Both the position numbers and the translations under genes were made by a program. The notes under the pieces were generated by a model. It saw only the letters and a list, made by a program, of their open reading frames with translations. It ran no database searches and was not told where the DNA came from. A stretch of DNA of 64,000 nt from Macrostomum lignano (lineage: Eukaryota): the NCBI GenBank assembly GCA_002269645.1, contig NIVC01003664.1, positions 1 through 64,000 of the forward strand. Reading direction: 5' to 3'. The stretch's first letter is position 1. Each line of letters begins with the position of its first letter. Shown here in pieces: positions 22,824-62,975 of the stretch.

Positions 22824-23960
22824 CTTCAGCGTCATGATGAGCTCGCCTTCGCTCCTGTGCTCGTACAGGTCGTACACAGCCAACTGCTCGATTATCGGCG
22901 GATTGTCGTTGACGTCTTTGACGTTGACGGTGACGGTGGCGCTGGCCGAACGTACCGGGGTACCGGAGTCCCGAGCCTCGATCAGCACCACGGCGCTGCG
23001 CTGCTCCGGCCGCTCAAAGTCCAGCTGGCGGCGCAGGTGGAGGTCCCAGGTGGAGGCCCCTTTTTTTAGCACCTCGAAATGGCCAGCGAGTTCCGACGGT
23101 GTTACGGCGACAATCTTCAGGTGGAGCTCGGCGTTGGCGCCGTCGTCCTGATCGTCTACCGAGAGCGTCGTGAGCCTATCGCCGACTGGCCAGTTTTCCG
23201 GGATCTCCAGCGTCTGCGTCGGCGTATTGAAGACTGGTGCGTTGTCGTTGACGTCGCCGACTCGGACGGTGATGACCACGGCGCCAGTTCGGAGGCCGTC
23301 GGTGGCGCGCAGGGTGATCTGGTACTGCGGCTGCCGCTCGCGGTCCAGCGGTTTCGTCAGGCGCAGACGCGGCTGCCCGGCCCCGGACGTGTCCACCAGC
23401 GCGAAGGTGCCGCTGGGGTCCTCCAGGCTGTAGTTGGCCACGCCGAACGCGGGCGAGTCGCGGTCCTCCGCCGCGGGCAGGTCGATCACCGTCCCGTTGG
23501 CGTCCTCGGGCACGTCGATTGGCTGCATGCTGCGGAACGCAGGCGGCTGGTCGTTCTCGTCGTTCAGGACAATGCGCAGCAGGCGAAGGATCGGCCGGGA
23601 GCCCGGCGCCGCCCGCAGCTCGAGTTGATAGTCCAGGACGCAGTCGGACTTCTCGCAGCAGTCCAGGAGGCCGCAGAGCTCGTCTCGGTCCACGTCGCGG
23701 TTGGCGGAGATGGCGCCCTGCCGGTCCACGGTGAATAGGTTGTCCGGGCTCTTTGATTGCGGCTCCAGGCGGGCGGACTGGTAGGGCGGCGGCGGCAGGC
23801 GGCTGTCGAGGGTGTACAGCTGGCCGACCAGCGTTTTGAAGTTCACGTTGTCACCCAGGCTGATGCTGATGCCGACGTCCGCCTGAGCGGAGGCCGGCGT
23901 GGCTAGCAGCACCAGGAGCAGGTGGACGCTGGCGAGGCGGCTCTGCTGCTTGGCGGCCAT
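22824..23960 (-). CDS. protocadherin exon 1: signal peptide, EC1-EC3, start of EC4 (7-EC, delta-1-like architecture)
   Basis: MAAKQQSRLASVHLLLVLLATPASA signal; EC1 DVDRDELC..C motif typical of protocadherins; PED/PEN, LDRE, DxNDN motifs. Confidence 0.93.
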
Positions 23961-24361
23961 TTCTTCTTTCGGTTAAATAATCCTAATTTAATAGGCCGAG
24001 CTGTGGCGTTGCCATTGGTATGTTATCTGCTTTTTTCTTATGCCCTGCTGGCCTGGCTCTCAGCTAATTCACCTCTCACCGCGTTGCAAGCTCCTTCTTC
24101 TAAAAGAAACATGTCTACGCCGCTGATTGGCTGACAGATTGGCCAATAGGAGCTGCTCGACTTGCCGCGATTCATTTCTTATTTTTCTGGCTGCCTTCTT
24201 TGCTTGGCCTCTGGTTTTGTATTCAATCCGGAATCAAACAAATCCCCTGTGGATCTCCTTTGTTAGAGTTTCAAAATTGTCTGAGGGCTTCGCATTTGAC
24301 AAGTGGGTTGAAAATAAACTAATGGGGAAGCGAGATGACGAAGTGATAAAAGGAGAGAAAA

Positions 24362-35955: not shown

Positions 35956-36513
35956 TAGAACCGTAGGTTAGTGTTTTTGATTTAAACATATTGTTCGCAT
36001 TTCACAGCATTTGGGATGCACGAAAAACCATTGAGATAAAATCAAAGCCATTATTTAATGTGATTCAAATTGATTAAGGAAAAGCATAATCTTAAAATAA
36101 TATTATTATTTTATTTAAATATAATTTCGAACTTTGAAAATGATTCAAAATATAAATAAATGGATTAAGAAGGGCGCTTTATTGCGAATGGTGGCTGTCT
36201 GGGGAATCAACAAAAGGCGGAACACGACAGAATCAAACTTATTACGTAATAAAGAAAATTCAACGATTCAACTAAGTAAGGAGCGGTGAAAATGAAGTTG
36301 TCCGCAACAAAACAACCAAGTACTACAGTTGGACAGAAATATTACATAAAAAGCTAATATGTCTACTAACAGCAGTCTGTAGCGATTTTTTATCAACAAA
36401 GTGCAATAACAGTTGAAATCAACCCGCTGCATCCATTGCCAGCCAATAGGAAATTAAAATGCGCGAAAGTTTGCTAAAGTTCGAAAGTTCGATTCCTAGT
36501 GCAGTCACATTAA

Positions 36514-36860
36514 TTTTGGGGCTAAATTGGAATCTCGGCTTGGCTCTGCTCGTGCAATTAACGGTCTTGAGGGTCAACTCCCAAGGCACAGTGAAGTGTA
36601 CATGCTTAGCCGATGTACACCCTGAGTGAGCGTGTGTACAAGTGCGTGCCTGCGAACAGTCCTTCGGCGACATCGTCACACAACCAGCGCTGTAGACAAG
36701 CGCGCCAATACTGAACGCAGGCGCGCACTCATACACACGATCACTCAGGGTGTACATCGGCCAAGCATGTACACTCTCTGTGCCCTGGGGGGGGGGGTTG
36801 ACCCTCATGACCGTGAATTGCACGACAACCCAACAGCCAATTTGCACACAAGCCCCAAAA
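36514..36860. mobile_element. palindromic MITE/foldback element, ~340 bp, just 3' of the SSADH stop
   Basis: Left arm gtgcaattaacggtcttgagggtcaac..aaggcacag..gtgtacatgcttagccgatgtacaccctgagtga is the inverse of the right arm; ends TTTTGGGGCT / AGCCCCAAAA; possible TAA TSD. Related copies at ~1.2, 2.8 and 5.1 kb. Confidence 0.8.
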
Positions 36861-36897: not shown

Positions 36898-39800
36898 TTA
36901 AGCCAAGTTCAGCACGACAGTCTTGAGGTTGAGGTACTCCTCGATGCCGTAGCCCACGCCGGACTCGCTGCCCAGCCCCGACTCGTTCCAGCCTCCGAAC
37001 GGGGCGATGCAGGAGCTCACCATGGACTCGTTGACCCCGACCATGCCAACATTGAGCTGCTCCGCCACTCGCCAGCACTGTCCGACATCGGCCGAGTAGA
37101 AATAACCGGCCAGCCCCACTCGACAGTCGTTCGCCAGTTCGACAACATCCGCCTCGCTGTCGAACTCGAACGCGGCAACAAGCGGGCCGAAAATCTCCTC
37201 GCGAAAGCAGGCGGAGTCGCGGCCCAGGCCCGACACCACCGTCGGTTGGAAAAAGTGGCCGGCGCCGCTGCCGACCTTGACCGACTGGCCGCCGGCGAGC
37301 ACCCGGCCGCCGCGCTGCTTGGCGTCAGCCAGGAGCCGCTCCAGCTTCGACTCGGCGGCCGCGTTGATCAGCGGGCCCAGTTGAGTGCCCGCCTGCACGG
37401 TTGGGGGAGGGGTTGGTGCAATTCCCCCCTCTGACCGCTTGTGCAATTCCCCCTCTGACCGCTTGTGCGATTCCCCCTCTGACCGCTTGTGCAATTCCCC
37501 TCTGACCCCTTATCAAATTCTCCTTGATTGCTTGTGCTAAATTGCTTCCTCATGAGGCCGTGAGCACTTGAGGCAATTCCCCAGCAACCCAACAGCCAAC
37601 AAACCTCGAAGCCATCGCCAACTTTCATTTCGGCAACCCGTTCGCACAGCTTAGCCAGAAACTTTTGGCTAACGCGGCGCTGCAAGAAAATCCGGTTGGG
37701 ACAAACGCAAGTCTGGCCCGTGTTGCGAAATTTGGCCTGAATGAGGCCAGCCACCTGCGGTGAATAGGGGGAAATGTTTTGCTAGAAATAAATTTGTTCA
37801 GACAGTGATAACTTGAAATTTGATACGAGGTAAACAAAAAATTATAGTTTTTTTCCGTCTTTGACAAGTTATACATACTTGAAAACAGTGTAAACATTGC
37901 AGAGATGGTGGAAGTTTCGAGCCTATGTGAAGATTTTAGATTGTGTGAAGATTTGAGTTTCTGAAGATTTGAGTTTGTGTGAAGATTTGAGTTTCTGAAG
38001 ATTTGAGTTTGTGTGAAGATTTGAGTTTGTGTGAAGATTTGAGTTTTGTGAAGATTTGAGTTTTGTGAAGATTTAAGTTTGTGTGAAGATTTTAATTTTT
38101 GTGAAAATTAGAGTTTGTGTGAAAATTTGAGCTTGTGTGAAGATTTTTGTGTGAAGATTAGAATTTGTGTGAAGATTTGAGTTTGTGTGAAGATTTGAGT
38201 TTGTGTGAAGATTCGAGCTTGTGTGAAGATTTGAGTTTGTGTGAAGATTTGAGTTTGTGTGAAGATTTGAGTTTGTGTGAAGATTTAAGTTTGTGTGAAA
38301 ATTTGAATTTATGTGAAGATTCGAGCTTGTGTGAAGATTTGAGCTTGTGTGAAGATTAGAGCTTGTGTGAAGATTTGAGTTTGTGTGAAGATTTGAGCTT
38401 GTGTGAAGATTTGAGCTTGTGTGAAGATTTGAGTTTGTGTGAAGATTAGAGCTTGTGTGAAGATTTTGGGCTTGTGTGGAGATTTGAGCTTTTTGTGAAG
38501 ATTTGAGCTTGTGTGAAGATTCGAGCTTGTGTGAAGATTATAGCTTGTGTGAAGATTTGAGTTTGTGTAAAGATTTGAGTTTGTGTGAAGATTTGAGTTT
38601 GTGTAAAGAAAAACATCCCTCCCCCCCAAAAAATCTCACAGCCTTGTCAACATCGGCCGAATCGAACACAATAAACGGAGCATTGCCGCCGAGCTCCATA
38701 GTGACTCGCTTCACCGTACTGGAGGCCTGTGCCAGCAGCAGCTTGCCCGTGTCCGTGCTGCCGGTGAAGCTCACGTGCTTCACGGCCGGGTCGGTGGTCA
38801 GAACTCGGCCAACTTCGGCAGCTCGGCTTCGCGAGCACGTGACCACATTGAGGGCACCTGGCGGCAGCAGGGCGTCGGCGGCCAGTTGGCACAGGGCCAG
38901 GGCCGTCAGCGGTGTGTCCTCGGCCGGCTTGATCACCACCGTGCAGCCGGCGGCGAGGGCGGCGCCAGCCTTCCGGGTGATCATGGCGGCGGGGAAATTC
39001 CACGGGGTGATCATGCCGCACACGCCTGCGGTTGGGGTTCAGGGGAGGTCAAGCTCTAGGTAAGGCGCCAGTGACCCAGTGACAGGTCAGGCACACCAGT
39101 AACCCAATGACAGGTCAGGCACACCAGTGACCCAATGACAGGTCAGGCACACCAGTAACCCAATGACAGGTCAGGCACATCAGTGACCCAATGACAGGTC
39201 AGGCACATCAGTGACCCAATGACAGGTCAGGCACATCAGTGACCCAATGACAGGTCAGGCACATCAGTGACCCAATGACAGGTCAGGCACACCAGTAACC
39301 CAATGACAGGTCAGGCACACCAGTGACCCAATGACAGGTCAGGCACACCAGTGACCCAATGACAGGTCAGGCACACCAGTAACCCAATGACAGGTCAGGC
39401 ACACCAGTGACCCAATGACAGGTCAGGCACATCAGTGACCCAATGACAGGTCAGGCACACCAGTAACCCAATGACAGGTCAGGCACACCAGTGACCCAAT
39501 GACAGGTCAGGCACACCAGTGACCCAATGACAGGTCAGGCACACCACTGACCCAATGACAGGTCAGGCACACCAGTGACCCAATGACAGGTCAGGCACAC
39601 CACTGACCCAATGACAGGTCAGGCACACCAGTGACCCAATGACAGGTCAGGCACACCAGTGACCCAATGACAGGTCAGGCACACCAGTGACCCAATGACA
39701 GGTCAGGCACACCAGTGACCCAATGACAGGTCAGGCACACCAGTGACCCAATGACAGGTCAGGCACACCACTGACCCAATGACAGGTCAGGCACACCAGT

Positions 39801-41388
39801 GACCCAATGACAGGTCAGGCACACTGACCCAATCAAGTCAAGGAAGGCGCTGCACAAAGCAATGCCTGATTTGACTCACCCTGCGGCTGCTTGAGCGTGA
39901 AAATTCGCTTGTCAGGCGTCGGGCCCTGCAGAGTCTGGCCGGTGACCCGAATGCCCTCTTCGGCGAACCAGCGAATAAAGGAGGCACCGTAGGCGACCTC
40001 GCCGCGAGATTCGGCGAGCGGCTTGCCGTTCTCCAGGGTCATGAGAGCGGCCAGGTCCTCGCAGCGGTCCTGGATCAGGCGCTCCCAGCTGTGCAGAAGA
40101 GCAGCTCGCTGAGATGGCGTCTTGCCGCGCCAGGCTTCAAATGCAACCTGCGGGGAGCCGAGTGACAGATGCGAGCTGCGGGTGGAGCTGCAGACTTTTC
40201 TTGTACATTAATTTATTAACTGATGGTTTTCACTTTGAGTTCACTTTGACTCCTAACTTGACCATCTGTCACTCCTAATTGGACCATCTGTCCCTCCTAA
40301 TTTGACAAGCTGTCACTCTTAATTTCAGAATCTGTCACTCCTGATTAGAACATCTGTTACTCCTGATTTGACAAGCTACTCTTAATTTAAGAGTCTGTCA
40401 CTTCTAATTAGACAAGCTGTCACTCCTAATTAGACAAGATGTCACTCCTAATTTGACAAGCTGTCACTCCTAATTAGACAAGATGTCACTCCTAATTAGA
40501 CAAGCTGTCACTCCTAATTAGACAAGCTGTCACTCCTAATTAGACAAGATGTCACTCCTAATTTGACAAGCTGTCACTCTTAATTTCAGAATCTGTCACT
40601 CCTGATTTGACCAGCTGTCACTTTTTATTTCAGAATCTGTCACTTCTAATTAGACAAGCTGTCACTCTTCATTTCAGAGTCTGTGACTCCTAATTACACA
40701 AGCTGTCACTCCTAATTTGACAAGCTGTCACTCCTAATTTCAGAATCTGTCCCTCCTGATTAGACCACCTGCCACTCCTAATTTCAGAGTCTGTCACTCC
40801 TAATTGAAACCCTCTGTCACTCCTAATTTGACAATCGGTCACTTCTAATTTGAAAAGCTGTCACACCTAATTTAGGAGTCTTTCACTCCTAATAAGACAA
40901 GCTGTCACTCTTTATTTCAGAATCTGTAACTCCTAATTAGACAAGCTGTCACTCCTGATTTGACAAGCTGTCACTCTTAATTTAAGAGTCTGTCACTCCT
41001 AATTAGACAAGCTGTCTCTCCTAATTTGAAAATCTCTCACTCCTAATTGAACAATCCGTCACTCCTAATTTGACAATCTGTCACTTAATACTTTATCGCA
41101 AAAGGGCTACTCAAGTACAAGATAGAAGTAATATTAACACCAAATAATCACCTGAGCATGCGCAATGGCGGCTGTTGCATCAGCAGCTCCCATGTCTGGC
41201 ACCTTGCAGACAAGTTCCCCATTTGCCGGATTGTAGACTGGGAAGCTCTCTCCATTGGCTGCATTCACCCATTGGCCATTGACAAAGGCTTTCTCACGCA
41301 GCAGGCTTTTGTAAGATGATGACGACATTGCGCGACTAGATAGGCTTAGAAGAGTTCTAGCAATCTGTGAACTTAGAAGCAAGCGCAT
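36898..41388 (-). CDS. ALDH5A1: succinate-semialdehyde dehydrogenase, mitochondrial (511 aa, 5 exons)
   Basis: Exons 41388-41152, 40147-39880, 39025-38640, 37754-37605 and 37392-36898 total 1536 nt, open. Motifs: N-terminal targeting-like peptide, [57 protein letters not shown] (catalytic Cys and CxC), EEIFGP. SSADH-type substrate Arg/Ser positions present. Confidence 0.93.
37415..37510. repeat. ~23-bp tandem repeat, 4 copies (SSADH intron 4)
   Basis: gtgcaattccccctctgaccgctt units. Confidence 0.85.
37920..38605. repeat. 18-bp minisatellite (TGTGTGAAGATTTGAGTT)n (SSADH intron 3)
   Basis: Direct. Confidence 0.95.
39068..39833. repeat. 28-bp minisatellite (CAGGTCAGGCACACCAGTGACCCAATGA)n, ~27 copies (SSADH intron 2)
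   Basis: gacagg at 39081, 39109, etc. Confidence 0.97.
40245..41090. repeat. degenerate ~22-bp minisatellite (TGTCACTCCTAATTWGACAAGC)n (SSADH intron 1)
   Basis: Direct, diverged copies. Confidence 0.9.
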
Positions 41389-43567
41389 AGCTACAAAAAA
41401 GGAAGAAATCAGGGAGGACACTAAAGCTCAGAAACAATTTTGATAACATTTTTTAATTTAAATCTTTGATATCCTGCATAAAAGCAAGTATACTTCCTTA
41501 TTGGTGTCAAGAATATTTGATACAATTCAATCTTCATTAAAAAAATAGTTTACAAGTCATTTTGATCATGATAAAAGCTATTATAGTTTTCCAAAAGCAC
41601 AAAAAATAGTATTTAATAGATCAGCTTTGTTCAATACTTAGTTCTATGCCAATTTTCCAAAACCTCATTTAGGATTCACATTACTATTAAATATCTAAAT
41701 TCCTAATGAATTTGATTACACTAAATTTTATTATATTATAAGTCTATTGAATCAGTATTATAATATTACTTGAAATGGTTAAAATTAAAAAAGATAAAAT
41801 TTGATTGATAAAAAAATCAACAATTATCTATAAGTTATGAAAAGAAATAGCTAGCAAAAATAGTTTGTCTAAAATATCTTTGCATTCATATTTTCATATT
41901 TTTAGATATGAAAATATATTCCTTTAAAGAGAAAAATTGAATGGCTAAGCCTAAAAACTCTGGATAGCAGGAAGGACTAAAACAAATTAAAAAAATCAAA
42001 GTAATTAAAATTTCTTAAATGTATTTAGACTTCTAAGACATCAGTTAAATTAAAATAGAACATAAAATATTTATGCAGAAATATTGACACAACTATCCAG
42101 AAGTCTAGGGAAAATGCAGATGTACAAAGAAAATAAAAATTAAATAAGAATTTATACTTAACTAATTGAATTCAAATATAATTTAATTAAACTAGTAGAT
42201 TTGTATCTTAATAATAAGCTCACCTGTTCGAGTTTTCCAAATTAAGGCTAAACTGTCTTTGATATGGTTGATTGAATTTACGATTTTTTGCCTAAACAAA
42301 TTAGCAAAGCAGTCAAAAAATTACAAACTAAATAAATTATAGTTTTATTTTAATCTTAAGTCACTATAGGAAAAGTTTTCAGGTCCGCATTTGTAAACCA
42401 TGATAGAAATTTCTGCTTTGTGTAGTTAACTATAAGTCGCGGTTCATGGAAAATTTATTGTTCGTGCGACAATCCGAACTCGAGCCAAATCATATACTAT
42501 AATAAATTTTATTGCAACCTATACATATTGCAACATTCCAAGCTGCTGAATATTATTTTTCTTTTGCGTTAGCTATAACTTTTGTGGATCAATGGGGCAG
42601 GAACTACTGGAAGTCAAAATGTTGTTACAATGGTCTTAGCCTAGCCAACGGTCTCTACTGGTACGACACCAGGATGTAATTTTCATTGATAATGACTTTT
42701 GATGCTGGCAGGAGGCCCTAAAATTAAATTTTCTGTCACAAAGATAAAATCATGTATAATATAGCCGAAAGTTAAAGATTCAAAATCGCTTGGAATTTTC
42801 ATGCAAGAAGACGATTATAAAATCATTGATCGAATAGATAAAGCAATAAAGTAATAGTTAAGTAGCAAAATTTAGATAAAAACAAACCGTTTAATCAAAT
42901 TTTAGTAAGCAAAACTGATTTTTAAACCAACGTCTATAGTTACCAATGAAGATAGACTGAATGACTGAATAGACTGATAGGTTGAATGTATGAATACTAT
43001 ATACAACAAATTAAATCGATCAAGAGCTTGTACACGATAAAATGCAACTTTAAAGTAAACTCTAAAATGATAATAGTTATACACTTCAGCTTACCATAAT
43101 TGAAGAGTTCGTAAGCGGCTGCTCGGTAGGGGGCCCAAATCAAGCAAAATTTCTTTTGGAGCTACCATTATATATAACTGCACTTGTAGAAGGCCAAATA
43201 AAAAACAAAGCATTCACACAGCGGCTCAACACACGTCCATTATCTTATCTACACTCATGTACATCTACGAGTAATTTCGCTATGCGAACCGAAAATGTAC
43301 TGTTCCTCATTTTGATAAAGTATGCATTTTATGCGCACATTGCATTATCTTTAGAAGCTTCTTTCAGGGACAGCTAGGAGTTACTAGATTCGATTGGACG
43401 CAACATGCCCCACGATTCATTCGAAAATTGCAAAACTGCTTTGACTTTAGAGGTATTTTGCTCTACAGTTCTAAACGACATAGCATGCATAATGTACATG
43501 TAGCTGCACGTACTGGAACAAAACCTTGAGTTATTAACTGCGCGGGTTTAAATTTTTTGAGAGGTGG

Positions 43568-45944: not shown

Positions 45945-47703
45945 ATGAAGTCAGTTAAAAGTACAATAAAGAGCACATGGACTCCGCTTTCAAAGGACGA
46001 GACAAATGCGGCTGTATGTTATACAGAATTATCTGTGAAATTTTTTACAGATTGGTGGATTTAGTCAATAATAATTAAACTTAATACAGCTTTCTCGTAT
46101 ATTAGGATCCATTGGTTTCGCGCAAAATGGCGTCGTATTTTTTTCATTTTTAAAAATTTCATAGCACAAAATTATTATGCAGGCTTGAAAATACAATGAC
46201 TTTTACTGCAACATGTACGAGCATTGTCTATACTTTAAACTGCTCTAAATGTAATCTATCATATGTTAATTTCATAATTTTGTTTGAAGTACCTAAAAAA
46301 CACAAAAATAAACAATTAATAATTAAATAAATGAATGTTTAAAACTTTTCATAAATTATAACTAACAGTTTGTTTTGAAAAGCAAATTGTAAAATTGTAC
46401 TCTAAAAGTTTGGGCTACTATTTTGTTCTTTACCTCAAGATTATTTTCTTGGCCAAAAGTTATACAGTACTCCAGTATGTACTTTGTTAATCATTTTAAA
46501 GCTTAGCTGAACCTTGATGAAAGACAACTCTTAAATTAAATATTTGACATAATATAAATGTTTAAAGCATCACTTTAATTAAATATAACTGGCTAGATTT
46601 GTAAAGATTTTTTCGTTTCATTAAATTTATGAAAAGCAAACCACCTCGTATTTATTTTATGCCTTTAGTTTTTACAGTAATGTCAATACTTGATGTAATT
46701 AAGCTAATTTCCTCTCCTGACTCATTTTAGATTTTTGAGGAACGACGTAACCTTTTAAACAAATGGGTAAGCTCATTGGAGAAACATTCGTTATTGTTTA
46801 TCATATAAAAAATCAGGAATTTTGAATTATGACTTGGTTTCAGTTCGCGAAATGGACCGACGAGCAGCGAAAGACGGCACTGAACGACCTGGTGCGAGCG
46901 TGCAACCAGTCCCAGATCGAACATCTGCACGAAGTCACGAAGCCCAGAGTGGTTCTGCACAAGGTGGACTTCACCCGCCAGCTGCCAAGGAGCCTCAGCT
47001 TGCTGCTGCTGTCCTACTTGGATCCGCGCAGCCTCTGTCGGGCGGCTCAGGTGACTCAAACTGCCGCCATGACTGGCCCCACCCACTTGCCACGCGACAA
47101 CCTAGCGCACCTATACAGAACACCACACCCGATTACCACAACAAAGCTCACACTGGATTCCCTATCCCATCCGCTGACAGGTAAGCTGGTACTGGAACTG
47201 GCTGTGCGACTCTGACGAAGTCTGGCTGCCCAAGTGCGCCCGCCTTGGCTGGTTCCTGCCCGCCCAGGCGCATCGGGACGTTGAAAGCTTCACCTTCTGG
47301 ACTGGCAAAGCCGTCACGCCCGGAGTCTACAAGCGGCTGTACTTGGAGAACCTCACCAGCCTGCAGGTATGAGAGGGAGAGTACGGAGGGAGAAGGAGAG
47401 AGGGTCCAGGTTCGACCCTGGGCTGTGGCACTCCGTCGACCTCAAGGAATAGTACAACAAAGCGTGCCTGGGGGGCATCGAATTCACTGCATTATTTAGT
47501 TAGTTAGTTGGTTAGTTAGCTCAGTTAGTTAGTAGTGAGTTAGTTAGTTTGTTTGTTTGTTTGTGAGTTAGTTAGTTAGTTATTTAGTTTGTTTGTTTGT
47601 TTGTTTGTTTGTTTGTTAGTTAGTTAGTGAGTTAGTTAGTTAGCTCAGTTAGTTAGTAGTGAGTTAGTTAGTTTGTTTGCTTGTGAGTTAGTTAGTTAGT
47701 TAT

Positions 47704-47772
<69 letters not shown>

Positions 47773-47821
47773 CAGTTAGTTAGTTCGTTAGTTAGTTAGT
47801 TAGTTAGTTACTTAGTCAGTG

Positions 47822-47887
<66 letters not shown>

Positions 47888-47978
47888 CTCAGTTAGTTAG
47901 TAGTGAGTTAGTTAGTTTGTTAGTTTGTTTGTTAGTTAGTTAGTTAGTTATTTAGTTTGTTAGTTTGTTTGTTAGTTT

Positions 47979-48034
<56 letters not shown>

Positions 48035-48069
48035 GTTAGTTAGTTAGTTAGTTAGTTAGTTTGTTAGTG

Positions 48070-48100
<31 letters not shown>

Positions 48101-48153
48101 GAGTTAGTTAGTTAGTTAGTCAGTGAGTTAGTTAGTTAGTTAGTTAGTTAGTC

Positions 48154-48216
<63 letters not shown>

Positions 48217-48217
48217 C

Positions 48218-48298
<81 letters not shown>

Positions 48299-49287
48299 TG
48301 TAACAGGGGTTTTACCTCCTACTTTATCAATTTTAATCCCAACCGCTGATACCAAGTTGTTACAGGCGTGATTCTCCCTTCTTAATAATATCTCACTGCT
48401 GACACCAAGTTGTTACAGGGTTTTTGGCTCTCTATAAAATTCCACTGTTATGCCACCAGAGTTGTACCAGGGCTAATTTACTATTCTCTTAAGTGTTCTT
48501 GTTAGGTTGGTAGCTGCCACCAAGATTATTCTATTAATAAATTATGAGTTTATCAATATTTGAATAATCTGAAAAATGTTTCTTAGAATAGGTCTGAGTA
48601 TTTAGTCTGAGTATTTAGTCTGAGTATTAGTCTGAGTATTATTCTTAGAAAAACTGTTAGCCCTGAGAGGTGTACTCTTCTGATTATTCTGGTAGCGTTC
48701 TATTATTCTGGTAGCGTTATACTTAATAATGGCCTGAGCGGTATTTTGGCTTACTGGTATATATATTTCATGTACTTTGCAAGTCCTTGGGCGTTACCGA
48801 GATCAGAGGGTCACAGCCTCCGTTATTCTTACACGTCTTACTTCAGATCTACTTCGCAACTTATCACTACTCAACACTTTCCTTCTTAGTAGTATATACG
48901 GTACACACCTCCGTCTACTTCACTCTTACTTCTTAAAGGAATGAATACAGAAACACTTCTTCAATTCTTATTTTCTCGGAACTCTTATTAATTGCTATCA
49001 ACTGTTTTATTGAACCGCGATGCGCGAGGTTGCTTCTCCCTCCGCCAAATTTGCCTGTATTTATAATAATTTTTCTCGTAGATTAAAACAAAAATTAACT
49101 CGCGTAAAATATTATCAAAAATACGAGTAGTAAAACAAAAATGCGTCGTAGTTTTTTGGCGTGAATTTAAAATGTAATAAATGATAGCTATTTTTTTGAA
49201 AGCAATCGGGAGGGGCCCTTTACAGTTAGTTAGTCAGTTAGTTACTTAGTTACTTAGTTAGTTAGTTAGTCAGTTAGTTAGTTAGTC

Positions 49288-49340
<53 letters not shown>

Positions 49341-50249
49341 CTTAGTTAGTTACTTAGTTAGTCAGTCAGTTAGTTCGTTAGTTAGTTAGCTGACCCGAAT
49401 CTCCACCCACAGGTGGAGGGCCCGACCCTAAAGGAGATGCAGCGCCTGCAGGAGACGGCACGCAGGCAGGACGAGGCCAAGGCCCGAAAAGCCAAGGCCA
49501 AGCGCGAGGCCGAGCTGGCCAAGAAGCGCACCCTGTCTGGCGCAGTCTGGCGCGCACCGGACAAGCACCCGGTGGACACCATGCGCTACAACTACTTGGA
49601 TCGTCGGGACATTCAACAGATGGAGAGCCGGCGCAAAGAGCCGCAGCCGCACAACACGTAGGAAGCCGCTTTGTTGATCCTTATAAAATCGACCATTAAA
49701 CCTCATTGAACCGAAGCCTAATTAGACATCTTTGGATGAGCAATCTACCGAATCACCTGCCACTGGGCCGCCCGCTCCCCCTGGATCCCGCAGGATGCGC
49801 AGCGTCGTGCTGACGGGCACAGGCAAGCTGCCGGCCGGGGCCGCCTCAGTCGCAGCTGGCGACGCAGCTTCAAAGAAGCGACACGCCGTCAACATCCGAG
49901 CTCTGCATCAGGTGTGGCAAACATAAAGTCATGATAATAAGAGCAATAAAAATTCAGTGTCTACTTTCGCACTTTTCTACTAACAAGTAGTCAAGTTTGA
50001 ATGTGCAGCCGAATAAAATAAGAAAAAATCTCCGCGCAGAGACTGCAATCGGACACGACGGTGACTCGCGGCAACCCCGAGCTTCCGCCTAGCGCTGGCA
50101 AAAATTTCAAGACCGTCGATTTAGCGGAACCCTCCGGGGGCGGCGGCGGTGGCGGCGGCGGTGGCGGCGGCTACCTGGTGGAGACTCTGCTGGACGGTCA
50201 GCTGATGGAGTCGCGGCCTTGGACGCTGAACGAAGGCGAGCTGGAGTAG
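45945..50249 (+). CDS. FBXO16: F-box only protein 16-like
   Basis: Exons 45945-46013 (MKSVKSTIKSTWTPL..), 46731-46766 (IFEERRNLLNKW), 46844-47050 (FAKWTDEQR..VDFTRQLPRSLSLLLLSYLDPRSLCRAAQ), 47181-47366 (VSWYWNWL..WLPKC..GW), 49413-49657/49661 (WRAPDKHPVDTMRYNYLD); probable 49726-49911 and 50040-50249. STWTPL, FEERR..L.KWF.KWTD, the F-box and DKHP.D..R.NYLD match FBXO16 as I recall it. Confidence 0.85.
47495..48298. repeat. (TTAG)n/(TTTG) microsatellite, left part
   Basis: Direct; intronic in FBXO16. Confidence 0.95.
48299..49224 (-). mobile_element. solo LTR (926 bp), probably Ty3/Gypsy-type, inserted in (TTAG)n
   Basis: TGTAA...TTACA inverted termini; GTTA on both sides (48295-98, 49225-28); minus-strand TATAAATA (49058-65) followed by AATAAA (49006-11). 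TSD length is hard to fix inside a microsatellite. Confidence 0.8.
49225..49390. repeat. (TTAG)n microsatellite, right part
   Basis: Direct; continues the array split by the LTR. Confidence 0.95.
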
Positions 50250-51658: not shown

Positions 51659-51991
51659 AATATTTGTTGCCATTCAAATAGTACGAAGCTGAGAGCGCTG
51701 TATAAACGTTGGAGCAGTAACAGGAAAAAATTACCTTTTTATAAGATCACCTCACCCACTAAAGGGTCCTTCTGAGGCATACTGTAAAGCATCGCAGATT
51801 GATAGGAAACTATACTCGTATTATTTTTGTTGCTGACACAGCAGAAATAAAACCAATTTATTGTCAATCACTGCAAATTGGCCGACAAGTTTTTCTGGCT
51901 TTCGAATTCAGTGAGAATTTTGAATAAAATCTAGGATTTTTTCATTTCCGTCGTAATTCTCAGTCACCAGCAGCAGCATACAAAAACCTCT

Positions 51992-52184
51992 GAATATTAG
52001 TCATAGATCAGACCATATATGGAAAGTCTGCAATCAAAACGCATGTTAAGCATGTCCGCTTTTCTCACCAGAAAATTTATTACAATCGTTAAATAAAACA
52101 AAACTGATGCTTTTCCACTGTCCGGAAATGAAAAATTTCTGAAAATTATTAAATTTCTGCAGCTTTGAACCAATTCTAATGAAC
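51992..52184 (+). repeat. ~190-bp unique flank duplicated at 57015-57207
   Basis: gaatattagtcatagatcag...aaccaattctaatgaact is identical apart from ~1 mismatch, and both copies run into (TCTG)n. Confidence 0.92.
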
Positions 52185-53220
<1,036 letters not shown>

Positions 53221-54763: not shown

Positions 54764-56085
54764 AAAACGGCCGAAAATATTTTACGTCGAAAGGATTGAG
54801 AAGTGCTGCAAAAAGAAGTTTTTTATAAAGTGGACTGACTATCCCAGGTAAGAAAATTTTCAAAAAAGAATTACCTCTAAATAATAATTTTCCTTAACTT
54901 GTAAAAAATTTAAGGCTTTACTGCTTTTCATTTTTAACATGCTTTGTAGGAGTGAAAACACATGGGAGCCGAAAAAAATATCCCCGAGAACATCGTCAAG
55001 GCTCTGCACTCTGAGTGCGGTAAGCTATACTGTACAGTCAATATCAATAGCAAACAATAGCACATTTGCATCAACAACTTATACAGTATTACATTATTTT
55101 ATACATTTCAGGCAAGTGCTTTCCATCAAGTCAGTAAGTTTTGTTGTAACGTGTTATTAAAATTTTTGATTTTGCGCTTTACTTAAACTATGAACAAATA
55201 TTGTGGACACAATTCTCCTTTATGTTTTTCTTTGATTCGAAATTCCTATAAAGTACAAAATGATTAGCTTTAGATGAACTAAACAGCTGAACTACTACAA
55301 CCACTTTCTTCTACGCTTCATACTTCAAAGTAAACAGTCAGTAATTGATTAGGGTCCAGCTAACACACCGTGACACCAACAGACAGACGCAGTCAGTTTA
55401 AGATGGTGCCCCGATCTGGGGTCCAGCTAACACACCGTGACACCAACAGACAGACGCAGTCAGTTTAAGATGGTGCCCCGATCTGGGGTCCAGCTAACAC
55501 ACCGTGACACCAACAGACAGACGAGTCTAGCAAGCTTAGAAAGGTGTCCGTTTTCGATTGGAGCTTTTGTTCTGTCAGTGATGTACTTTCCTTATGCGCA
55601 CCCAACAGCAGGACTCGGGCAGTATGCCAAAGCAACGTTGCTTGGCCAGTCCTACGTCCAGTTTTCAAGAGAACAACTCTGTTTTTATCGGTGACGATTT
55701 TGCTGAAGCTTTTGACCCAGATGCATTGTCTTTGGACGTCGACTCAGTGGAAATGAGCGAGCTTGATAGTGATCTGCACCCGGCAATGCAAAGTATTGCT
55801 GATACTTATGATGAATACTTTCATGCAGCAAAAGGAAAAGTTGAAGCATCGTGGTGAAGAAGGTTCGAATGATGTGGATGAAGATGATGATTCTGAAGTC
55901 ATTTGGGAAGAATGTGAGGAATACGATCTTCTTCGGCGTCACGCTCGAGTATCTCCTGATAAAAAGAAGCACAGCTGTTTATTTTGTGGCGAACTTTTTT
56001 CGAAGCTGCCTCGCCATCTGATTAGTAGGCATTTAAATGAACTGGAAGTCCAGGAAGCTAAATCGCATCCTAAGAACTCTAAAGG
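54764..56085 (+). pseudogene. disrupted spliced ORF: chromodomain + acidic linker + C2H2-like (C-x2-C..RHL..H) module, probably transposon-derived
   Basis: Exons ~54764-54847, 54950-55019, 55112-55133, ~55579-56085. Chromodomain FYVERIEK..FFIKWTDYPR|SENTWEP(K)KNIPENIV (needs +1 in the A-run at 54972-78). KKHSCLFCGELFSKLPRHLISRHLNELEVQEAKSHPKNSK. Further frameshifts in the last exon. Confidence 0.7.
55353..55523 (+). repeat. 67-bp direct repeat x2.6 starting GGTCCAGCTAAC and containing ACAGACAGAC
   Basis: Units at 55353, 55420, 55487. Confidence 0.92.
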
Positions 56086-57014
56086 CAAGCAGTTTTTTAC
56101 CATTTTTGTGAGACATTAACAATGTTTTTTCAAGATTTTTGAGAAAGAAAATGATACATTGGTGACGACATCGTGAACGTTTTTCGCTATTATATTTGCT
56201 AAATTTTTATTTGCTATTTATGTCTGTTGCTAGTGTGCGTTCCCAGTGTGTTTTTTTCTATTTGTGCCATTGTTAAAGTCCTCGGCAAATGATTTTATTC
56301 GCTAGGCTGCAGATTTGGATTATCTAGTCCCACAACTCCAAATTCGAATTAAAACTTAGTGCCGCTACTTTGTAGGGATCAGTTAGACAAATAGTTGTGT
56401 GGTTAAACCGTGTCTGTTGCAAGTGTGCGTTCCCAGTGTGTTTTTAGCAGTTTTTTGTATCAACTATTTAAATGGCTTATACAAAATTGTATTAATTGAA
56501 AAAATGAAAAACGGCAGAAATAAATTGCAACGTTTTGCGTTTCTTTAAAATTTTTCCCTTATGTTAAATCGATTATTTACAATCGCGTCCGTCTGTCTTT
56601 AACCTTAGCTGTCAGTGTTAGTAGTAGAGAAAACTCAAAATCAACATTTTTGTTTCTTAGACTTTTGCCAATGCATTTCGACCACAATCGGTCATCTTCA
56701 GGGCAGACACGTCAATTAATCACACAGAACCATGTTATAAAAATACTTTATTTTAAGAAATGAAAACTGTAAAATGTCATGTGCAAATCAATTTCAGTCC
56801 AGTCTCGTTAACAAGAGAAAGAAAACCTGAATAAAGTTCAACGAGACTGCCAACCTAGCTAAAACACATTTGAGCTGGCGGCTTGCACCCCCATGGCTAA
56901 CTGGCTGTTCAAATTTGGTTTCTGAGCCTTGATGTACATCGCCTCCAGAATGTTCAATTTGTTTTCTCTGCTACAGGAATCGATAACTTTATCGAAAGCA
57001 TACAAAAGACCCCA

Positions 57015-57207
57015 GAATATTAGTCATAGATCAGACCATATATGGAAAGTCTGCAATCAAAACGCATGTTAAGCATGTCCGCTTTTCTCACCAGAAAATT
57101 TATTACAATCGTTAAATAAAACAAAATTGATGCTTTTCCACTGTCCGGAAATGAAAAATTTCTGAAAATTATTAAATTTCTGCAGCTTTGAACCAATTCT
57201 AATGAAC
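57015..57207 (+). repeat. second copy of the ~190-bp flank
   Basis: Matches 51992-52184. Confidence 0.92.
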
Positions 57208-58112
<905 letters not shown>

Positions 58113-59844
58113 TACTGTCTGTGTGTTTACGTGGACTTTTTGGAAGTTCAGTAGCCTCGTTAGCTGGACCAACCGGTGTAGGTAGACCACTTAGGTGGAC
58201 CACCAAATAATTTTGTCTCTGGTGGGGTTAAGACGTTGATGAGGATCTCACATTAATGTCAGGCGGGTCAAGAAAGGCTTAAGCAATTTTGGGATGTCTA
58301 GCATGGATTTTTCCAAAGTTATTTGCATTTCAGTTTAGCTGGACCTCCAGCCTGGTCTACCTAAACCGAGCGAGTCTGGTCCACGTAAACCGAAAAATTT
58401 TAGAAAATTTTTCGAAAATCGTCTGTTTGTGTCTGTTTGTGTCTGTTTGTGTATAGCAGTTATTAAGCATAGATTAAATGCAAAACTGAATTTTTTACAG
58501 ATCATTACCTTACGAACAAAGGGCTATGTTGGCATCATATTATGACCGCTACTGGCTTTAAAACAATATGCGTTCAGTTCTTTGACATTCAAGTAGGTAC
58601 GCAGGTTAATTAAAAATTCTGAAACCTCGTATGCGAAATGAATTTGATACAGTAAACTTTAAACTCCATTTAATTAGCTCAGTTCCAGCAATTCCGGTAT
58701 CGTACTCTGAGCACAGACTCACAGAGTAAGACACCAACGTAAAGAAATCCAATTCGCTAACCAGATCAAACGATAAAGACTCCGAGACAAGAAAGATATT
58801 TAAGTGAAGCTTAAATAGTATTCTTCAATGACTTCTCAAGAACTCCCAGTGGTCCTTGATAGCCACACTGTGTAAATGCGAATTTCTGAGGCTCTACCAT
58901 TACACAAGAAGAAAATAGCAACTTCATGAATTAAGTGCTTGCCAATTCTATCCTAAACACTATGGGATATCCTGTTCTATCCTCCTCCAATTTTGGAAGA
59001 AGAAGATCCTAAGCTGCAGCCTTTCAAGTGCAAAGTTGAAGATGCAATTTACCTAATTGAAAAGGACAATTCATACATGTACATGCAAAAGATTTGATCA
59101 AGAGGACGCAATTAAGAAGGGCCTTTTAACTAGCGATCGGGTCTCTGACTCTCTAGCAAAAGGTCGACTTGATTGCGGTCCCAGTAAAACTAAGAACGCA
59201 TTAACAGTCAGCCTAACACTCACTGTCTGTTTGGTCCACGTAAACACATTTGCAGGAGTATAGGGTTGGAACAGACAGACAGACAGACCTCCCTTTCTAT
59301 AATTGGCTGGTTAACACTTAGGAGGATAGATCCACCCCAACAATGGGACCGACCGCAGCCAATAGGAAACCCGCAAGCGTTCTGAAGGTAAGACAGTGGA
59401 GAGAGGGATATATAATGTCTAAGCGGCTGGTCCACGTAAACCATGGCGTAGTGAGACCAGACACAGACAGTTTAAAAGAAAGTACTTATAATCCATACTA
59501 TACAACTCTAAAGGATTGCAATTGTATAGATTAGAACGGTTTTTTATACTTAATAGGTCTAATGTTAATCCTTACTCCAAGTTTCATCCATATATAAATT
59601 TATTGTGCCAAAAACTGTAATCTACAACCAAGATATGATGACCCGCAAAAAAGGACGCCAAGCCTAAAATAAAAACTAAAAAAACACCGTCGCAAAAAGC
59701 CACTGCGAAATCGAAGAAGCCGCATCGCCTGGTGAAAATCATCAGTCTGCTCGCAAATCCGTCGACACCGAGTCCAGAAAAGTGAGTTTCGTTTGATGAT
59801 CTCAAAGTAGCTAGCTGCAAGGCCTGCAACTCAATTGCTGTAGA

Positions 59845-62800
59845 GAAGCTGGTCCACCTAACCTACAGACACAACTGAATCAGCTCTCTCAGTCTGTTTG
59901 AGGCTTTGGCTCTCAGAAGGTGGTCCACCTAACCTACAGACACAACTCGAGCAGATTTCTCTGTCTGTTTGAGGCTCTGGCTCTCAGAGCCGCCGAGAAA
60001 GTTTAGTGCCGAGAATGCTTCAGTATGTTAGAATGCAATCAGAACAGATTCCTAGAAAGTGAGCTAGTCCAGCATCAAGGCAGAACATCTGGATGTGTAA
60101 CGAGAGGCTCTCGGAGATTCCTGGCTCAGATTATCGCCTAGAAGTGCTGTAGAATAGCTGGTCCACCTAACCTACAGACACAACTCGAACAGATTTCTCT
60201 GTCTGTTTGAGGCTGTGGCTCTCAGAGCCGCCGAGAAAGTTTAGTGCCGAGAATGCTTCAGTTTTTTAGAATGCAATCAGAACAGATTCCTAGAAAGTGA
60301 GCTAGTCCAGCATCAAGGTAGAACATCTGGATGTGTAACGAGAGGCTCTCGGAGATTCCTGGCTCGGATTATCGCCTAGAAGTGCTTTGGAGTAGCTGGT
60401 CCACCTAACCTACAGACACAACTCGAACAGATTTCTCTGTCTGTTTGAGGCTCTGGCTCTCAGAGCCGCCGAGAAAGTTTAGTGCCGAGAATGCTTCAGT
60501 TTGTTAGAATGCAATCAGAACAGATTCCTAGAAAGTGAGCTAGTCCAGCATCAAGGCAGAACATCTGGATGTGTAACGAAAGTCTCTCGGAGACTCCTGG
60601 CTCAGATTATCGCCTAGAAGTGCTTTGGAGTAGCTGGTCCACCTAACCTACAGACACAACTCGAACAGATTTCTCTGTCTGTTTGAGGCTCTGGCTCTTA
60701 GAGCCGCCGAGAAAGTTTAGTGCCGAGAATGCTTCAGTTTGTTAGAATGCAATCAGAACAGATTCCTAGAAAGTGAGCTAGTCCAGCATCAAGGCAGAAC
60801 ATCTGGATGTGTAACGAAAGTCTCTCGGAGACTCCTGGCTCAGATTATCGCCTAGAAGTGCTGTGGAGTAGCTGGTCCACCTAACCTACAGACACAACTC
60901 GAACAGATTTCTCTGACTGTTTAAGGCTCTGGCTCTTAGAGCCGCCGAGAAAGTTTAGTGCAGAAAATGTTTCAGTTTGTTAGAATGCAATCAGAACAGA
61001 TTCCTAGAAAGTGAGCTAGTCCAGCATCAAGGTAGAACATCTGGATGTGTAACGAGAGGCTCTCGGAGATTCCTGGCTCAGATTATCGCCTAGAAGTGCT
61101 GTGGAGTAGCTGGTCCACCTAACCTACAGACACAACTCGAACAGATTTCTCTGTCTGTTTGAGGCTCTGGCTCTCAGAGCCGCCGAGAAAGTTTAGTGCC
61201 GAGAATGCTTCAGTTTGTTAGAATGCAATCAGAACAGATTCCTAGAAAGTGAGCTAGTCCAGCATCAAGGCAGAACATCTGGATGTGTAACGAGAGGCTC
61301 TCGGAGATTCCTGGCTCAGATTATCGCCAAGAAGTGCTGTAGAATAGCTGGTCCACCTAACCTACAGACACAACTCGAACAGATTTCTCTGTCTGTTTGA
61401 GGCTCTGGCTCTTAGGTGGTCCACATAACCTACAGACACAACTGAAGCAGCTCTCTCAGTCTGTTTGAGGCTTTGGCTCTCAGAAGGTGGTCCACCTAAC
61501 CTACAGACACAACTCGAACAGATTTCTCTGTCTGTTTGAGGCTCTGGCTCTCAGAGCCGCCGAGAAAGTTTAGTGCAGAAAATGCTTCAGTTTGTTAGAA
61601 TGCAATCAGAACAGATTCCTAGAAAGTGAGCTAGTCCAGCATCAAGGCAGAACATCTGGATGTGTAACGAAAGTCTCTCGGAGACTCCTGGCTCAGATTA
61701 TCGCCTAGAAGTGCTTTGGAGTAGCTGGTCCACCTAACCTACAGACACAACTCGAACAGATTTCTCTGTCTGTTTGAGGCTCTGGCTCTCAGAGCCGCCG
61801 AGAAAGTTTAGTGCCGAGAATGCTTCAGTTTGTTAGAATGCAATCAGAACAGATTCCTAGAAAGTGAGCTAGTCCAGCATCAAGGCAGAACATCTGGATG
61901 TGTAACGAGAGGCTCTCGGAGATTCCTGGCTCAGATTATCGCCTAGAAGTGCTTTGGAGTAGCTGGTCCACCTAACCTACAGACACAACTCGAACAGATT
62001 TCTCTGTCTGTTTGAGGCTCTGGCTCTCAGAGCCGCCGAGAAAGTTTAGTGCCGAGAATGCTTCAGTTTGTTAGAATGCAATCAGAACAGATTCCTAGAA
62101 AGTGAGCTAGTCCAGCATCAAGGCAGAACATCTGGATGTGTAACGAGAGGCTCTCGGAGATTCCTGGCTCAGATTATCGCCTAGAAGTGCTGTGGAGTAG
62201 CTGGTCCACCTAACCTACAGACACAACTCGAACAGATTTCTCTGTCTGTTTGAGGCTCTGGCTCTTAGGTGGTCCACATAACCTACAGACACAACTGAAG
62301 CAGCTCTCTCAGTCTGTTTGAGGCTTTGGCTCTCAGAAGGTGGTCCACCTAACCTACAGACACAACTCGAACAGATTTCTCTGTCTGTTTAGGCTCTGGC
62401 TCTTAGAGCCGCCGAGAAAGTTTAGTGCAGAAAATGCTTCAGTTTGTTAGAATGCAATCAGAACAGATTCCTAGAAAGTGAGCTAGTCCAGCATCAAGGC
62501 AGAACATCTGGATGTGTAACGAGAGGCTCTCGGAGATTCCTGGCTCAGATTATCGCCTAGAAGTGCTGTGGAGTAGCTGGTCCACCTAACCTACAGACAC
62601 AACTCGAACAGATTTCTCTGTCTGTTTGAGGCTCTGGCTCTTAGGTGGTCCACATAACCTACAGACACAACTGAAGCAGCTCTCTCAGTCTGTTTGAGGC
62701 TTTGGCTCTCAGAAGGTGGTCCATCTAACCTACAGACACAACTCGAACAGATTTCTCTGTCTGTTTGAGGCTCTGGCTCTTAGGTGGTCCACATAACCTA

Positions 62801-62975
62801 TAGACACAACTGAAGCAGCTCTCTCAGTCTGTTTGAGGCTTTGGCTCTCAGAAGGTGGTTCACCTAACCTACAGACACAACTCGAACAGATTTCTCTGTC
62901 TGTTTGAGGCTCTGGCTCTCAGGTGGTCCACATAACCTACAGTCACAACTGGAACAGATTTCTGTGTCTGTTTGA
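59845..62975 (+). repeat. 238-bp satellite with interspersed ~70-bp sub-units (GGTCCACCTAACCTACAGACACAAC..TGTCTGTTTGAGGC)
   Basis: Unit starts at 60156, 60394, 60632, 60870; short-module runs near 61349-61489 and 62570-62940. Confidence 0.95.

What the first reader, a model, noticed from the sequence alone, without database searches (positions are those of the whole stretch)
48299..48530. Tandem array of four different tRNA-Leu-like primer-binding sites built into the LTR's U5 end (repeat-spacer layout)
Seen: a semi-conserved junction (plus strand GCTGAYACCAAGTTGTTACAGG) recurs every ~52-65 bp with unrelated 30-40-bp spacers. On the minus strand each unit reads LTR-end-like CCTGTAACA + ACT + TGG-PBS. 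The motifs are TGGTGGCAGCT (48522-12), TGGTGGCATAACAGTGGAATT (48458-38), TGGTGTCAGCAGTGAGAT (48407-390) and TGGTATCAGCGGTTGGGATT (48354-35), and the element then ends at CCCCTGTTACA. Known: a PBS starts with TGG just after the 5' LTR. From memory, tRNA-Leu 3' ends give TGGTGTCAG(G/A)AGTGGGAT and TGGTGGCAGCGGTGGGAT. Inference: U5 grew by repeatedly capturing former LTR-end/PBS junctions, leaving an ordered record of primer usage. Alternatively, the array offers alternative isoacceptor primers or acts as a decoy for 3' tRNA fragments that silence LTR elements. I know no description of this arrangement.
Basis: partly seen in the sequence, partly recalled or inferred. Interest (0 to 1): 0.8.

Follow-up and report, generated by a model that had tools for sequence, protein, structure and literature searches.

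The report
Retrotransposon end with stacked primer sites
A lone retrotransposon end-repeat in an animal gene's intron carries three or four worn copies of the site where a leucine tRNA normally starts its copying; this looks like a fossil trail of old element ends rather than a set of four different primers, and it is unusual but of unproven function.

Summary
The array is real. A 926-bp TGT…ACA insert (48299-49224, minus strand) splits a (TTAG)n tract in an F-box gene intron, in a phase that fits a 4-bp target duplication. Its 3' end holds three complete [LTR end + 3-4 nt + tRNA-Leu PBS-like] junctions, 52-59 bp apart, plus a 10-nt remnant. Units 3 and 4 are the best two of 1901 TGG sites against published Leu tRNA ends.

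Two claims fail. The motifs are not four different tRNAs: one shared G→T, six G→A changes and two insertions separate them from a single Leu end. The spacers are not unrelated 30-40-mers: three are 21-30 nt and weakly homologous (joint p≈0.0002-0.04).

It is also not plain uniform decay. Junctions 3 and 4 are more alike (25/29) than their spacers (17/30; P≈0.01), and decay worsens away from the LTR end.

Best reading: a solo Ty3/gypsy-type LTR whose end grew by duplication or unequal template switching at the LTR-end/PBS junction, with priming from the last PBS. The internal copies are mostly vestigial. Only one copy was available, the host is unidentified, and function is untested. Ten literature searches found no such array; the closest cases are dual-PBS HIV-1 and the bipartite PBS of Gypsy and Ty3.

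The parts
48299..49224 (-). Putative solo LTR, 926 bp, TGT...ACA, 36% GC, no coding frame, single copy in the window
49216..49224 (-). 5' terminus TGTAAAGGG (fits TGTNR); imperfect inverted repeat of about 10 bp with the 3' terminus
   Evidence: TGTNR pattern from PMC2836005
48299..48309 (-). Present 3' LTR end CCCCTGTTACA (presumed integrase attachment end); followed directly by host repeat, no PBS
49225..49228 (-). TAAC, 5' copy of a possible 4-bp target-site duplication (phase also fits 0 or 8 bp; not 1-3 or 5-7)
48295..48298 (-). TAAC, 3' copy of the possible 4-bp target-site duplication
48513..48522 (-). Unit 1: 10-nt remnant, perfect match to the first 10 nt of a Leu(AAG) PBS; no LTR-end motif before it; folds back on the next bases
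48470..48511 (-). Spacer 1, 42 nt, no significant likeness to the other spacers
48439..48469 (-). Unit 2 junction: TGGTACA + 4-nt linker + degenerate PBS (8-nt perfect start, 2-nt insertion, three G-to-A changes vs Leu-AAG)
48418..48438 (-). Spacer 2, 21 nt, AT-rich / purine-rich / A-run / C-run
48390..48417 (-). Unit 3 junction: TGTAACA + ACT + 18-nt PBS, 16/18 to Leu(CAA), 9-nt perfect start
48365..48389 (-). Spacer 3, 25 nt
48336..48364 (-). Unit 4 junction: TGTAACA + ACT + PBS-like 19 nt (17 of 19 to Leu-AAG with one inserted base; only 4-nt perfect start)
48306..48335 (-). Spacer 4, 30 nt, the present terminal segment of the LTR
47492..48298 (.). (TTAG)n host microsatellite, left part of the insertion site
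49225..49389 (.). (TTAG)n host microsatellite, right part of the insertion site
47367..49412 (+). GT-AG intron of a host F-box gene that holds the insertion; the LTR is antisense to the gene
   Evidence: (PF12937, E 1.4e-5)

Best explanation
The insert is a solo LTR of a tRNA-Leu-primed Ty3/gypsy-type retrotransposon whose 3' end was lengthened stepwise. A segment made of the last 20-30 nt of the LTR, the TG..ACA end, the 3-nt linker and the 18-nt PBS was duplicated in the element's RNA leader. This could come from mis-annealing at plus-strand transfer or from unequal template switching between co-packaged, somewhat diverged relatives at the conserved junction. Each time, reverse transcription was primed from the most downstream PBS, so the earlier junction was copied into strong-stop DNA and became LTR-internal. 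The internal copies are now mostly vestigial and decaying. They descend from one, at most two, Leu-type PBS and are a trail of former ends, not four primers.

Shown: the anatomy, the Leu-PBS likeness, weak whole-unit homology, polar decay, and junctions more conserved than spacers. Inferred: LTR status (no full-length copy seen), the duplication route, which PBS primes, and loss of function of the internal copies.
For: TGT/ACA ends with a short inverted repeat and a flank phase fitting a 4-bp duplication. Each of units 2-4 has the geometry of a true LTR/PBS border, with a linker of 3-4 nt; published offsets are 0-5 nt in Drosophila (PMC2790888) and 4 nt in ta-TRIM (PMC4558846). PBS likeness stops at 18-19 nt, the length copied from the primer in plus-strand synthesis (PMC1785368). 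Units 2-4 align end to end, periods 52, 53 and 59. Against the Leu-AAG probe there are 6 G→A and 2 G→T changes (the latter at one shared position); none gives a G·U wobble. Duplex energies are -19 to -25 kcal/mol against -33 and -39 for perfect sites. No special RNA fold (z +0.84). Tapeworm Saci2-like, lennie and ta-TRIM elements combine TGT/ACA or TG/CA ends, 4-bp TSDs and Leu priming.
Against: Strict serial self-duplication followed by neutral decay predicts that junctions 3 and 4 are at least as diverged as spacers 3 and 4. The reverse is seen: 25/29 vs 17/30, simulated P 0.008-0.010; Fisher p 0.01-0.035 on hand-counted tables. Inter-subfamily switching, conversion or selection is therefore needed. 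Junctions 3 and 4 share TGTAACA while the real end and unit 2 have T at that position, which does not fit a simple oldest-to-youngest order. Units 1-3 keep perfect starts of 10, 8 and 9 nt, as long as working flatworm PBSs (8-9 nt). No second copy, internal region or host tRNA set was available.
Confidence: 0.55

Rival explanations
1. Working multi-primer array. The internal junctions are still used now and then as alternative priming sites and LTR ends (or as extra tRNA anchors for RNA packaging or strand transfer), possibly with two Leu isoacceptors. Selection keeps end + linker + PBS start while the spacers drift.
For: Junctions are more conserved than spacers for units 3 and 4 (P≈0.01); end + linker are identical over 10 of 10 nt; TG..ACA is kept in 3 of 3 internal ends; perfect PBS starts of 8-10 nt in units 1-3. 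The four sites are the four strongest Leu-AAG duplex sites in the element. Extra tRNA sites are functional in Gypsy and Ty3 (PMC1635307), and Saci2 families switch primers by PBS substitutions (PMC12471100).
Against: Unit 2 shows no clear junction excess (22/31 vs 15/25 with unit 3; 21/32 vs 16/30 with unit 4). Unit 4, nearest the end, has a mismatch at PBS position 5. The changes are non-wobble. An unrelated site at 49055 binds about as well (-19.0) as units 2 and 3 (-19.6). Active upstream priming would tend to delete downstream units (inference).
Confidence: 0.22
2. Ordinary decayed tandem repeat: one old DNA- or RT-level slippage amplified a 52-59-bp unit that happened to span the LTR end and PBS, and the better-kept junction of units 3 and 4 reflects chance or one short conversion event.
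For: Units 2-4 align along their whole length. The same LTR has other short slippage repeats of 13 and 19 bp, and the window is full of minisatellites (68 TRF rows). The non-uniformity rests on one pair of units.
Against: Uniform-divergence simulation gives P 0.008-0.010. Unit lengths differ. TRF did not call the array. Even here, downstream priming is needed to bring a PBS inside an LTR.
Confidence: 0.13
3. Not an LTR: a non-autonomous TGT..ACA DNA transposon (Ginger-like) or other insert that captured LTR/PBS pieces, or a plus-oriented element.
For: Ginger elements share TGTNR ends and 4-bp TSDs (PMC2836005). Orientation rests only on the array; promoter and poly(A) hexamers are symmetric and at chance level. 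No full-length element was seen.
Against: The terminal inverted repeat is about 10 bp, against 40-270 bp for Ginger1 and about 50-180 bp for Ginger2. The site is TAAC, not CCGG/CCGT or RTATAY. The internal junctions copy this element's own end.
Confidence: 0.07
4. Decoy or sponge for 3' tRNA fragments, or a host-co-opted source of tRF-like RNA from the antisense host intron.
For: 3'-tRFs repress LTR RNAs through PBS complementarity and tolerate some mismatches (bioRxiv 10.64898/2026.01.22.698655).
Against: Extra sites in cis should add repression, not relieve it (inference). The same preprint reports weak or no repression at several mismatched sites. No expression data.
Confidence: 0.03

Closest known systems
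Saci2-like / lennie Ty3-gypsy elements and ta-TRIM of tapeworms (PMC12471100, PMC4558846; passages read)
   Same: TGT..ACA or TG..CA LTR ends, 4-bp TSD, tRNA-Leu PBS a few nt after the LTR, many solo LTRs, PBS variation among families
   Different: One PBS outside a short LTR (about 200 bp for ta-TRIM); no internal junction array in the passages read; no coding region here to place this element in that clade
Steamer elements of bivalves (PMC8905726; passage read)
   Same: Leu PBS beginning TGGTGTCAG; TGTAACA motif
   Different: In Steamer TGTAACA is the LTR start, LTRs are 153-219 bp and the PBS follows immediately; here the LTR is 926 bp with a 3-nt linker and stacked junctions
HIV-1 variant that stably keeps dual PBS (Li et al. 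1997 Virology; title seen only in the reference list of PMC11181671)
   Same: More than one PBS in tandem near the LTR end of a replicating retroelement
   Different: Laboratory virus with two PBSs for different tRNAs; paper not read; here 3-4 degenerate Leu sites, each with a copy of the LTR end, lie inside a natural solo LTR
Bipartite or second PBS of Drosophila Gypsy and yeast Ty3 (PMC1635307; passages read)
   Same: Additional tRNA-binding sites besides the canonical PBS
   Different: There the second site lies at the 3' end of the RNA and can bridge the two RNA ends through the tRNA; it is not a tandem copy of the LTR-end/PBS junction
Tandem-array TRIMs (search listing only; layout recalled)
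   Same: Repeated LTR-PBS units in tandem
   Different: Their units hold whole LTRs and a PPT; here the repeated piece is only the LTR tail, and a C-run rather than a purine tract abuts each TGT
Ginger1/Ginger2 DNA transposons (PMC2836005; passages read)
   Same: TGTNR termini, 4-bp TSD
   Different: Need TIRs of 40 bp or more and have specific targets; not met

Membership tests
Solo LTR of an LTR retrotransposon | TG...CA termini with short imperfect inverted repeat | tested here: met
   TGTAAAGGG start vs TGTAACAGGGG as reverse complement of the end
Solo LTR of an LTR retrotransposon | 4-6-bp target-site duplication | tested here: inconclusive
   TAAC on both sides fits 4 bp and excludes 5-7, but in a 4-bp-period repeat 0 or 8 bp fit as well
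Solo LTR of an LTR retrotransposon | Same sequence flanks a full-length element elsewhere in the genome | not testable with these tools
   Single copy in 64 kb; no host genome; 0 hits in two GTDB scans
Solo LTR of an LTR retrotransposon | U3-R-U5 signals (TATA, poly(A)) in the sense orientation | tested here: inconclusive
   TATAAA at 49065 and AATAAA at 49011 on minus, but counts equal chance and the plus strand has as many
tRNA-Leu primer-binding site | Starts TGG 0-5 nt after an LTR 3' end | tested here: met
   Units 2-4: 4, 3 and 3 nt after a TG..ACA copy; unit 1 fails, so 3 of 4
tRNA-Leu primer-binding site | 8-18-nt complementarity to a tRNA-Leu 3' end | tested here: met
   Against two mammalian probes: perfect starts 10, 8, 9 and 4 nt; unit 3 16/18; unit 4 17/19 with one gap
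tRNA-Leu primer-binding site | Exact match to a tRNA of the host | not testable with these tools
   No tRNA gene in the window; host not identified
tRNA-Leu primer-binding site | Primes minus-strand cDNA | not testable with these tools
   Needs strong-stop cDNA mapping
Saci2/Gmr1-like Ty3-gypsy clade | pol domain order and RT/INT phylogeny | not testable with these tools
   No retroelement domain among 135 frames scanned with Pfam; 122 of the 157 frames listed were sent
Ginger DNA transposon | TIRs of 40 bp or more; CCGG/CCGT or RTATAY target | tested here: not met
   TIR about 10 bp, target TAAC
tRNA pseudogene / tRNA-derived SINE fragment | Likeness continues past nt 18 into the T-loop | tested here: not met
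   2, 1 and 3 of 8 further matches; no tRNA hit in Rfam or ARAGORN
CRISPR-like repeat-spacer array | Unrelated spacers of even length acquired from foreign DNA | tested here: not met
   Spacers 21-42 nt, spacers 2-4 mutually homologous; none matches elsewhere in the window above shuffles

The most novel reading that the evidence does not exclude
A natural retrotransposon family keeps a stack of switchable LTR ends, each with its own Leu primer site and each taken from a different relative. LTR length and primer choice could then change from one replication round to the next, and the array would be a readable log of recombination and primer history.
Probability: 0.22. Interest if true: 0.75.

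Novelty: new variant of a known kind. Interest (0 to 1): 0.45.

Why it matters
LTR boundaries are set by where the tRNA primes, and a PBS inside an LTR is not expected to last. A natural LTR with three stacked former ends shows a route by which LTRs grow, a process otherwise hinted at by dual-PBS laboratory viruses. It makes that route testable from genome data alone, by counting copies that end at each internal site. It would also mislead LTR/PBS annotation tools and may give solo LTRs target sites for 3' tRNA fragments that they normally lack. If the copies are only vestigial, it is a neat but minor piece of transposon anatomy.

Tried and rejected
1. Host identification by three protein searches failed. 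ALDH exon: best 47-54% identity, mixed sources. Cadherin: 26-35% to many animals. F-box exon: one unnamed hit at 81%. The host is an animal; a Macrostomum-like flatworm is my recalled guess from the repeat landscape and no call supports it.
2. Other copies: none in the window and 0 in two GTDB scans for stray contigs. Viral and metagenome contigs and the host genome stayed unchecked.
3. Rfam: one match, at chance level (RAGATH-23, E 0.97).
4. RNA fold of the array is no better than shuffles.
5. Micro-TRIM reading (TGTAACA as a tiny LTR, the purine stretch as PPT) rejected: a C-run, part of the terminal inverted repeat, lies between the purine stretch and TGT.
6. tRNA pseudogene, Ginger and CRISPR-like readings rejected (see membership table).
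7. Promoter and poly(A) signals do not orient the element.
8. Literature: 10 searches. Searches gave 0 papers; one search was swamped by other meanings of 'PBS'. None listed a paper describing stacked LTR-end/PBS junctions inside an LTR. The library lacks most subscription papers, and Repbase and Dfam could not be searched. The Saci2 PBS figure (Suppl. Fig. S6) gave no text and may bear on isoacceptor switching.

Full report
Setting. The window is repeat-rich animal DNA: 68 tandem-repeat rows and cadherin, aldehyde dehydrogenase, WSC and F-box exons. Three protein searches did not name the host. The finding lies at one end of a 926-bp insert, 48299-49224, which splits a (TTAG)n tract inside a GT-AG intron (47367-49412) of a plus-strand F-box gene (a likeness to FBXO16 is recalled, not tested). 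On the minus strand the insert starts TGTAAAGGG and ends CCCCTGTTACA, an imperfect inverted repeat of about 10 bp. The flanks fit a 4-bp duplication TAAC and exclude 1-3 and 5-7 bp, but 0 or 8 bp would fit equally in this repeat. The insert has no coding frame and no second copy in the window. Two exact-match scans of GTDB contigs found nothing.

The observation. TGG motifs stand at 48522, 48458, 48407 and 48354. Units 2, 3 and 4 are each preceded by a copy of the element's own end (TGGTACA, TGTAACA, TGTAACA) and a 4-, 3- and 3-nt linker; end-to-end periods are 52, 53 and 59 bp. Unit 1 has no such end. A junction pattern made from the array occurs 3 times in the window and 0 times in 100 shuffles. 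For an independent yardstick I used two published mammalian tRNA-Leu 3'-end probes (PMC7997516, passage read). Units 3 and 4 rank first and second of 1901 TGG sites; 0 of 3000 shuffled elements reached unit 3's score and 1 reached unit 4's. Unit 2 ties with 16 other sites and unit 1 is at background by that score, though its first 10 nt match Leu-AAG perfectly. By duplex energy the four sites are the four best Leu-AAG sites in the element (-19.6 to -24.8 kcal/mol; perfect site -39.0), with an unrelated site close behind at -19.0. Likeness stops at PBS length: 2, 1 and 3 of the next 8 bases match the T-loop, and neither ARAGORN nor Rfam sees a tRNA.

Are there four different primers? No good sign of it. 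Scores against Leu-CAA vs Leu-AAG are 25/25 for unit 2, 29/26 for unit 3 and 26/29 for unit 4. Units 3 and 4 mix diagnostic positions of both probes. Against Leu-AAG, all substitutions are G→A (three, two and one) except one G→T shared by units 3 and 4; unit 2 has a 2-nt and unit 4 a 1-nt insertion. G→A in a PBS makes an A·C mismatch, and unit 2's change at position 16 faces the invariant tRNA C61 (established tRNA structure), so unit 2 cannot be the exact complement of a tRNA. One ancestral Leu-type PBS plus decay suffices. A switch between two isoacceptors is possible, since such switches are reported among Saci2 families (PMC12471100, passages read). The host's tRNAs were not available, so an unusual host Leu end matching unit 3 or 4 better is not excluded.

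Are the spacers unrelated? They are 42, 21, 25 and 30 nt. Spacers 2-4 share a layout and align: pairwise global p 0.049, 0.0075 and 0.0087, joint p 0.0002. Much of the signal is the C-run next to the end; without the last 4 nt, joint p is 0.04 (global) and 0.35 (local). Spacer 1 matches none. No spacer matches elsewhere in the window above shuffles. They look like older or sister versions of the LTR tail, not acquired foreign DNA.

Is it ordinary decay? Not quite. Using a partition fixed by function (end + linker + PBS vs spacer), units 3 and 4 are 25/29 identical in the junction and 17/30 in the spacer. In 6000 simulations per ancestor, matched for overall identity, such a gap arose with P 0.010 and 0.008. 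Pairs with unit 2 show a much smaller excess (22/31 vs 15/25; 21/32 vs 16/30). Serial self-duplication with neutral decay predicts the reverse gap, because junctions 3 and 4 would have parted before spacers 3 and 4. So either the units came from diverged relatives in which each junction was still under selection, or there was a short conversion, or internal junctions are still under selection. The result rests on one pair and one of three comparisons. Decay is polar: unit 1 is a remnant, unit 2 is degenerate, units 3 and 4 are best kept. The array has no special RNA fold (z +0.84).

Mechanism. The right end of an LTR is set by where the tRNA primes, and plus-strand synthesis copies about 18 nt of the primer (PMC1785368 and PMC3832253, passages read). 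If the LTR tail and PBS are duplicated in the leader, by mis-annealing at plus-strand transfer or by unequal switching between co-packaged RNAs, priming at the last PBS copies the earlier junction into both LTRs. Repeating this gives the present stack, and LTR-LTR recombination leaves the solo copy. These steps are inferred. I put 0.55 on this with mostly vestigial internal sites, 0.22 on a working multi-primer array, 0.13 on plain slippage plus chance, 0.07 on a non-LTR element and 0.03 on a tRF decoy. In favour of residual function, units 1-3 keep perfect starts of 10, 8 and 9 nt, like working flatworm PBSs of 8-9 nt (PMC4558846, passages read). The label U5 is positional only: TATAAA and AATAAA counts are at chance level on both strands.

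Comparison with known systems. Ends, likely TSD length and Leu priming resemble tapeworm Saci2, lennie and ta-TRIM elements and, in the PBS, Steamer (PMC8905726, passage read). Clade membership cannot be tested without pol. Ginger DNA transposons fail on TIR length and target (PMC2836005, passages read). Extra tRNA sites are known in Gypsy and Ty3 but lie at the 3' end of the RNA (PMC1635307, passages read). A dual-PBS HIV-1 is known (title only, in the reference list seen). I recall second PBS-like sites in Ogre and in 412/mdg1; no call confirmed this, and 'two PBS' did not occur in the plant survey PMC6317226 (passages read). Passages of PMC8931336, PMC8220671, PMC2790888 and bioRxiv 10.64898/2026.01.22.698655 described no such array. 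Ten searches listed none either, but the library omits most subscription papers, and repeat databases were not searchable.

Verdict. A real and unusual piece of LTR anatomy, a new variant of a known kind. The four-primer record and the unrelated spacers do not. Function is open and can be settled largely from the host genome. Interest 0.45.

Noticed in passing
window 48683-48720 and 48509-48522 (minus strand): A 19-bp duplicate in the LTR carries ACGCTACC twice (the only two occurrences in the window), and unit 1 continues with GCTACC. These are complementary to the 5' end of tRNA-Leu(AAG) as I recall it, so they could pair with the freed 5' acceptor strand or with a PBS; unit 1 folds into a hairpin. 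Post hoc, and chance is not excluded.
   Followed up: partly
window 51975-53219 and 56997-58126: A 210-bp sequence occurs twice (98% identical), each time followed by about 1 kb of (CTGT)n; looks like a young microsatellite-carrying mobile element.
   Followed up: no
window 36900-41430 (minus strand): Aldehyde dehydrogenase (succinate-semialdehyde type by best hits) gene; different minisatellites of 18, 28 and 22 bp lie between its exons.
   Followed up: no
window 55352-55527: 67-bp tandem repeat (2.6 copies) with TGGTGTCA on the minus strand, a weak Leu-PBS-like start (score 8, background level); no LTR-end motif checked.
   Followed up: no
window 59844-62975: Higher-order satellite built from 68-71-bp subunits with periods 139, 238 and 376 bp.
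   Followed up: no
window 20686-23972 (minus strand): Two long cadherin-repeat exons, only 26-35% identical to the best database proteins.
   Followed up: partly
window 1283-1446, 2801-2939, 5116-5180, 36489-36859: Short dispersed repeat fragments, 73-89% identical; family unknown.
   Followed up: no
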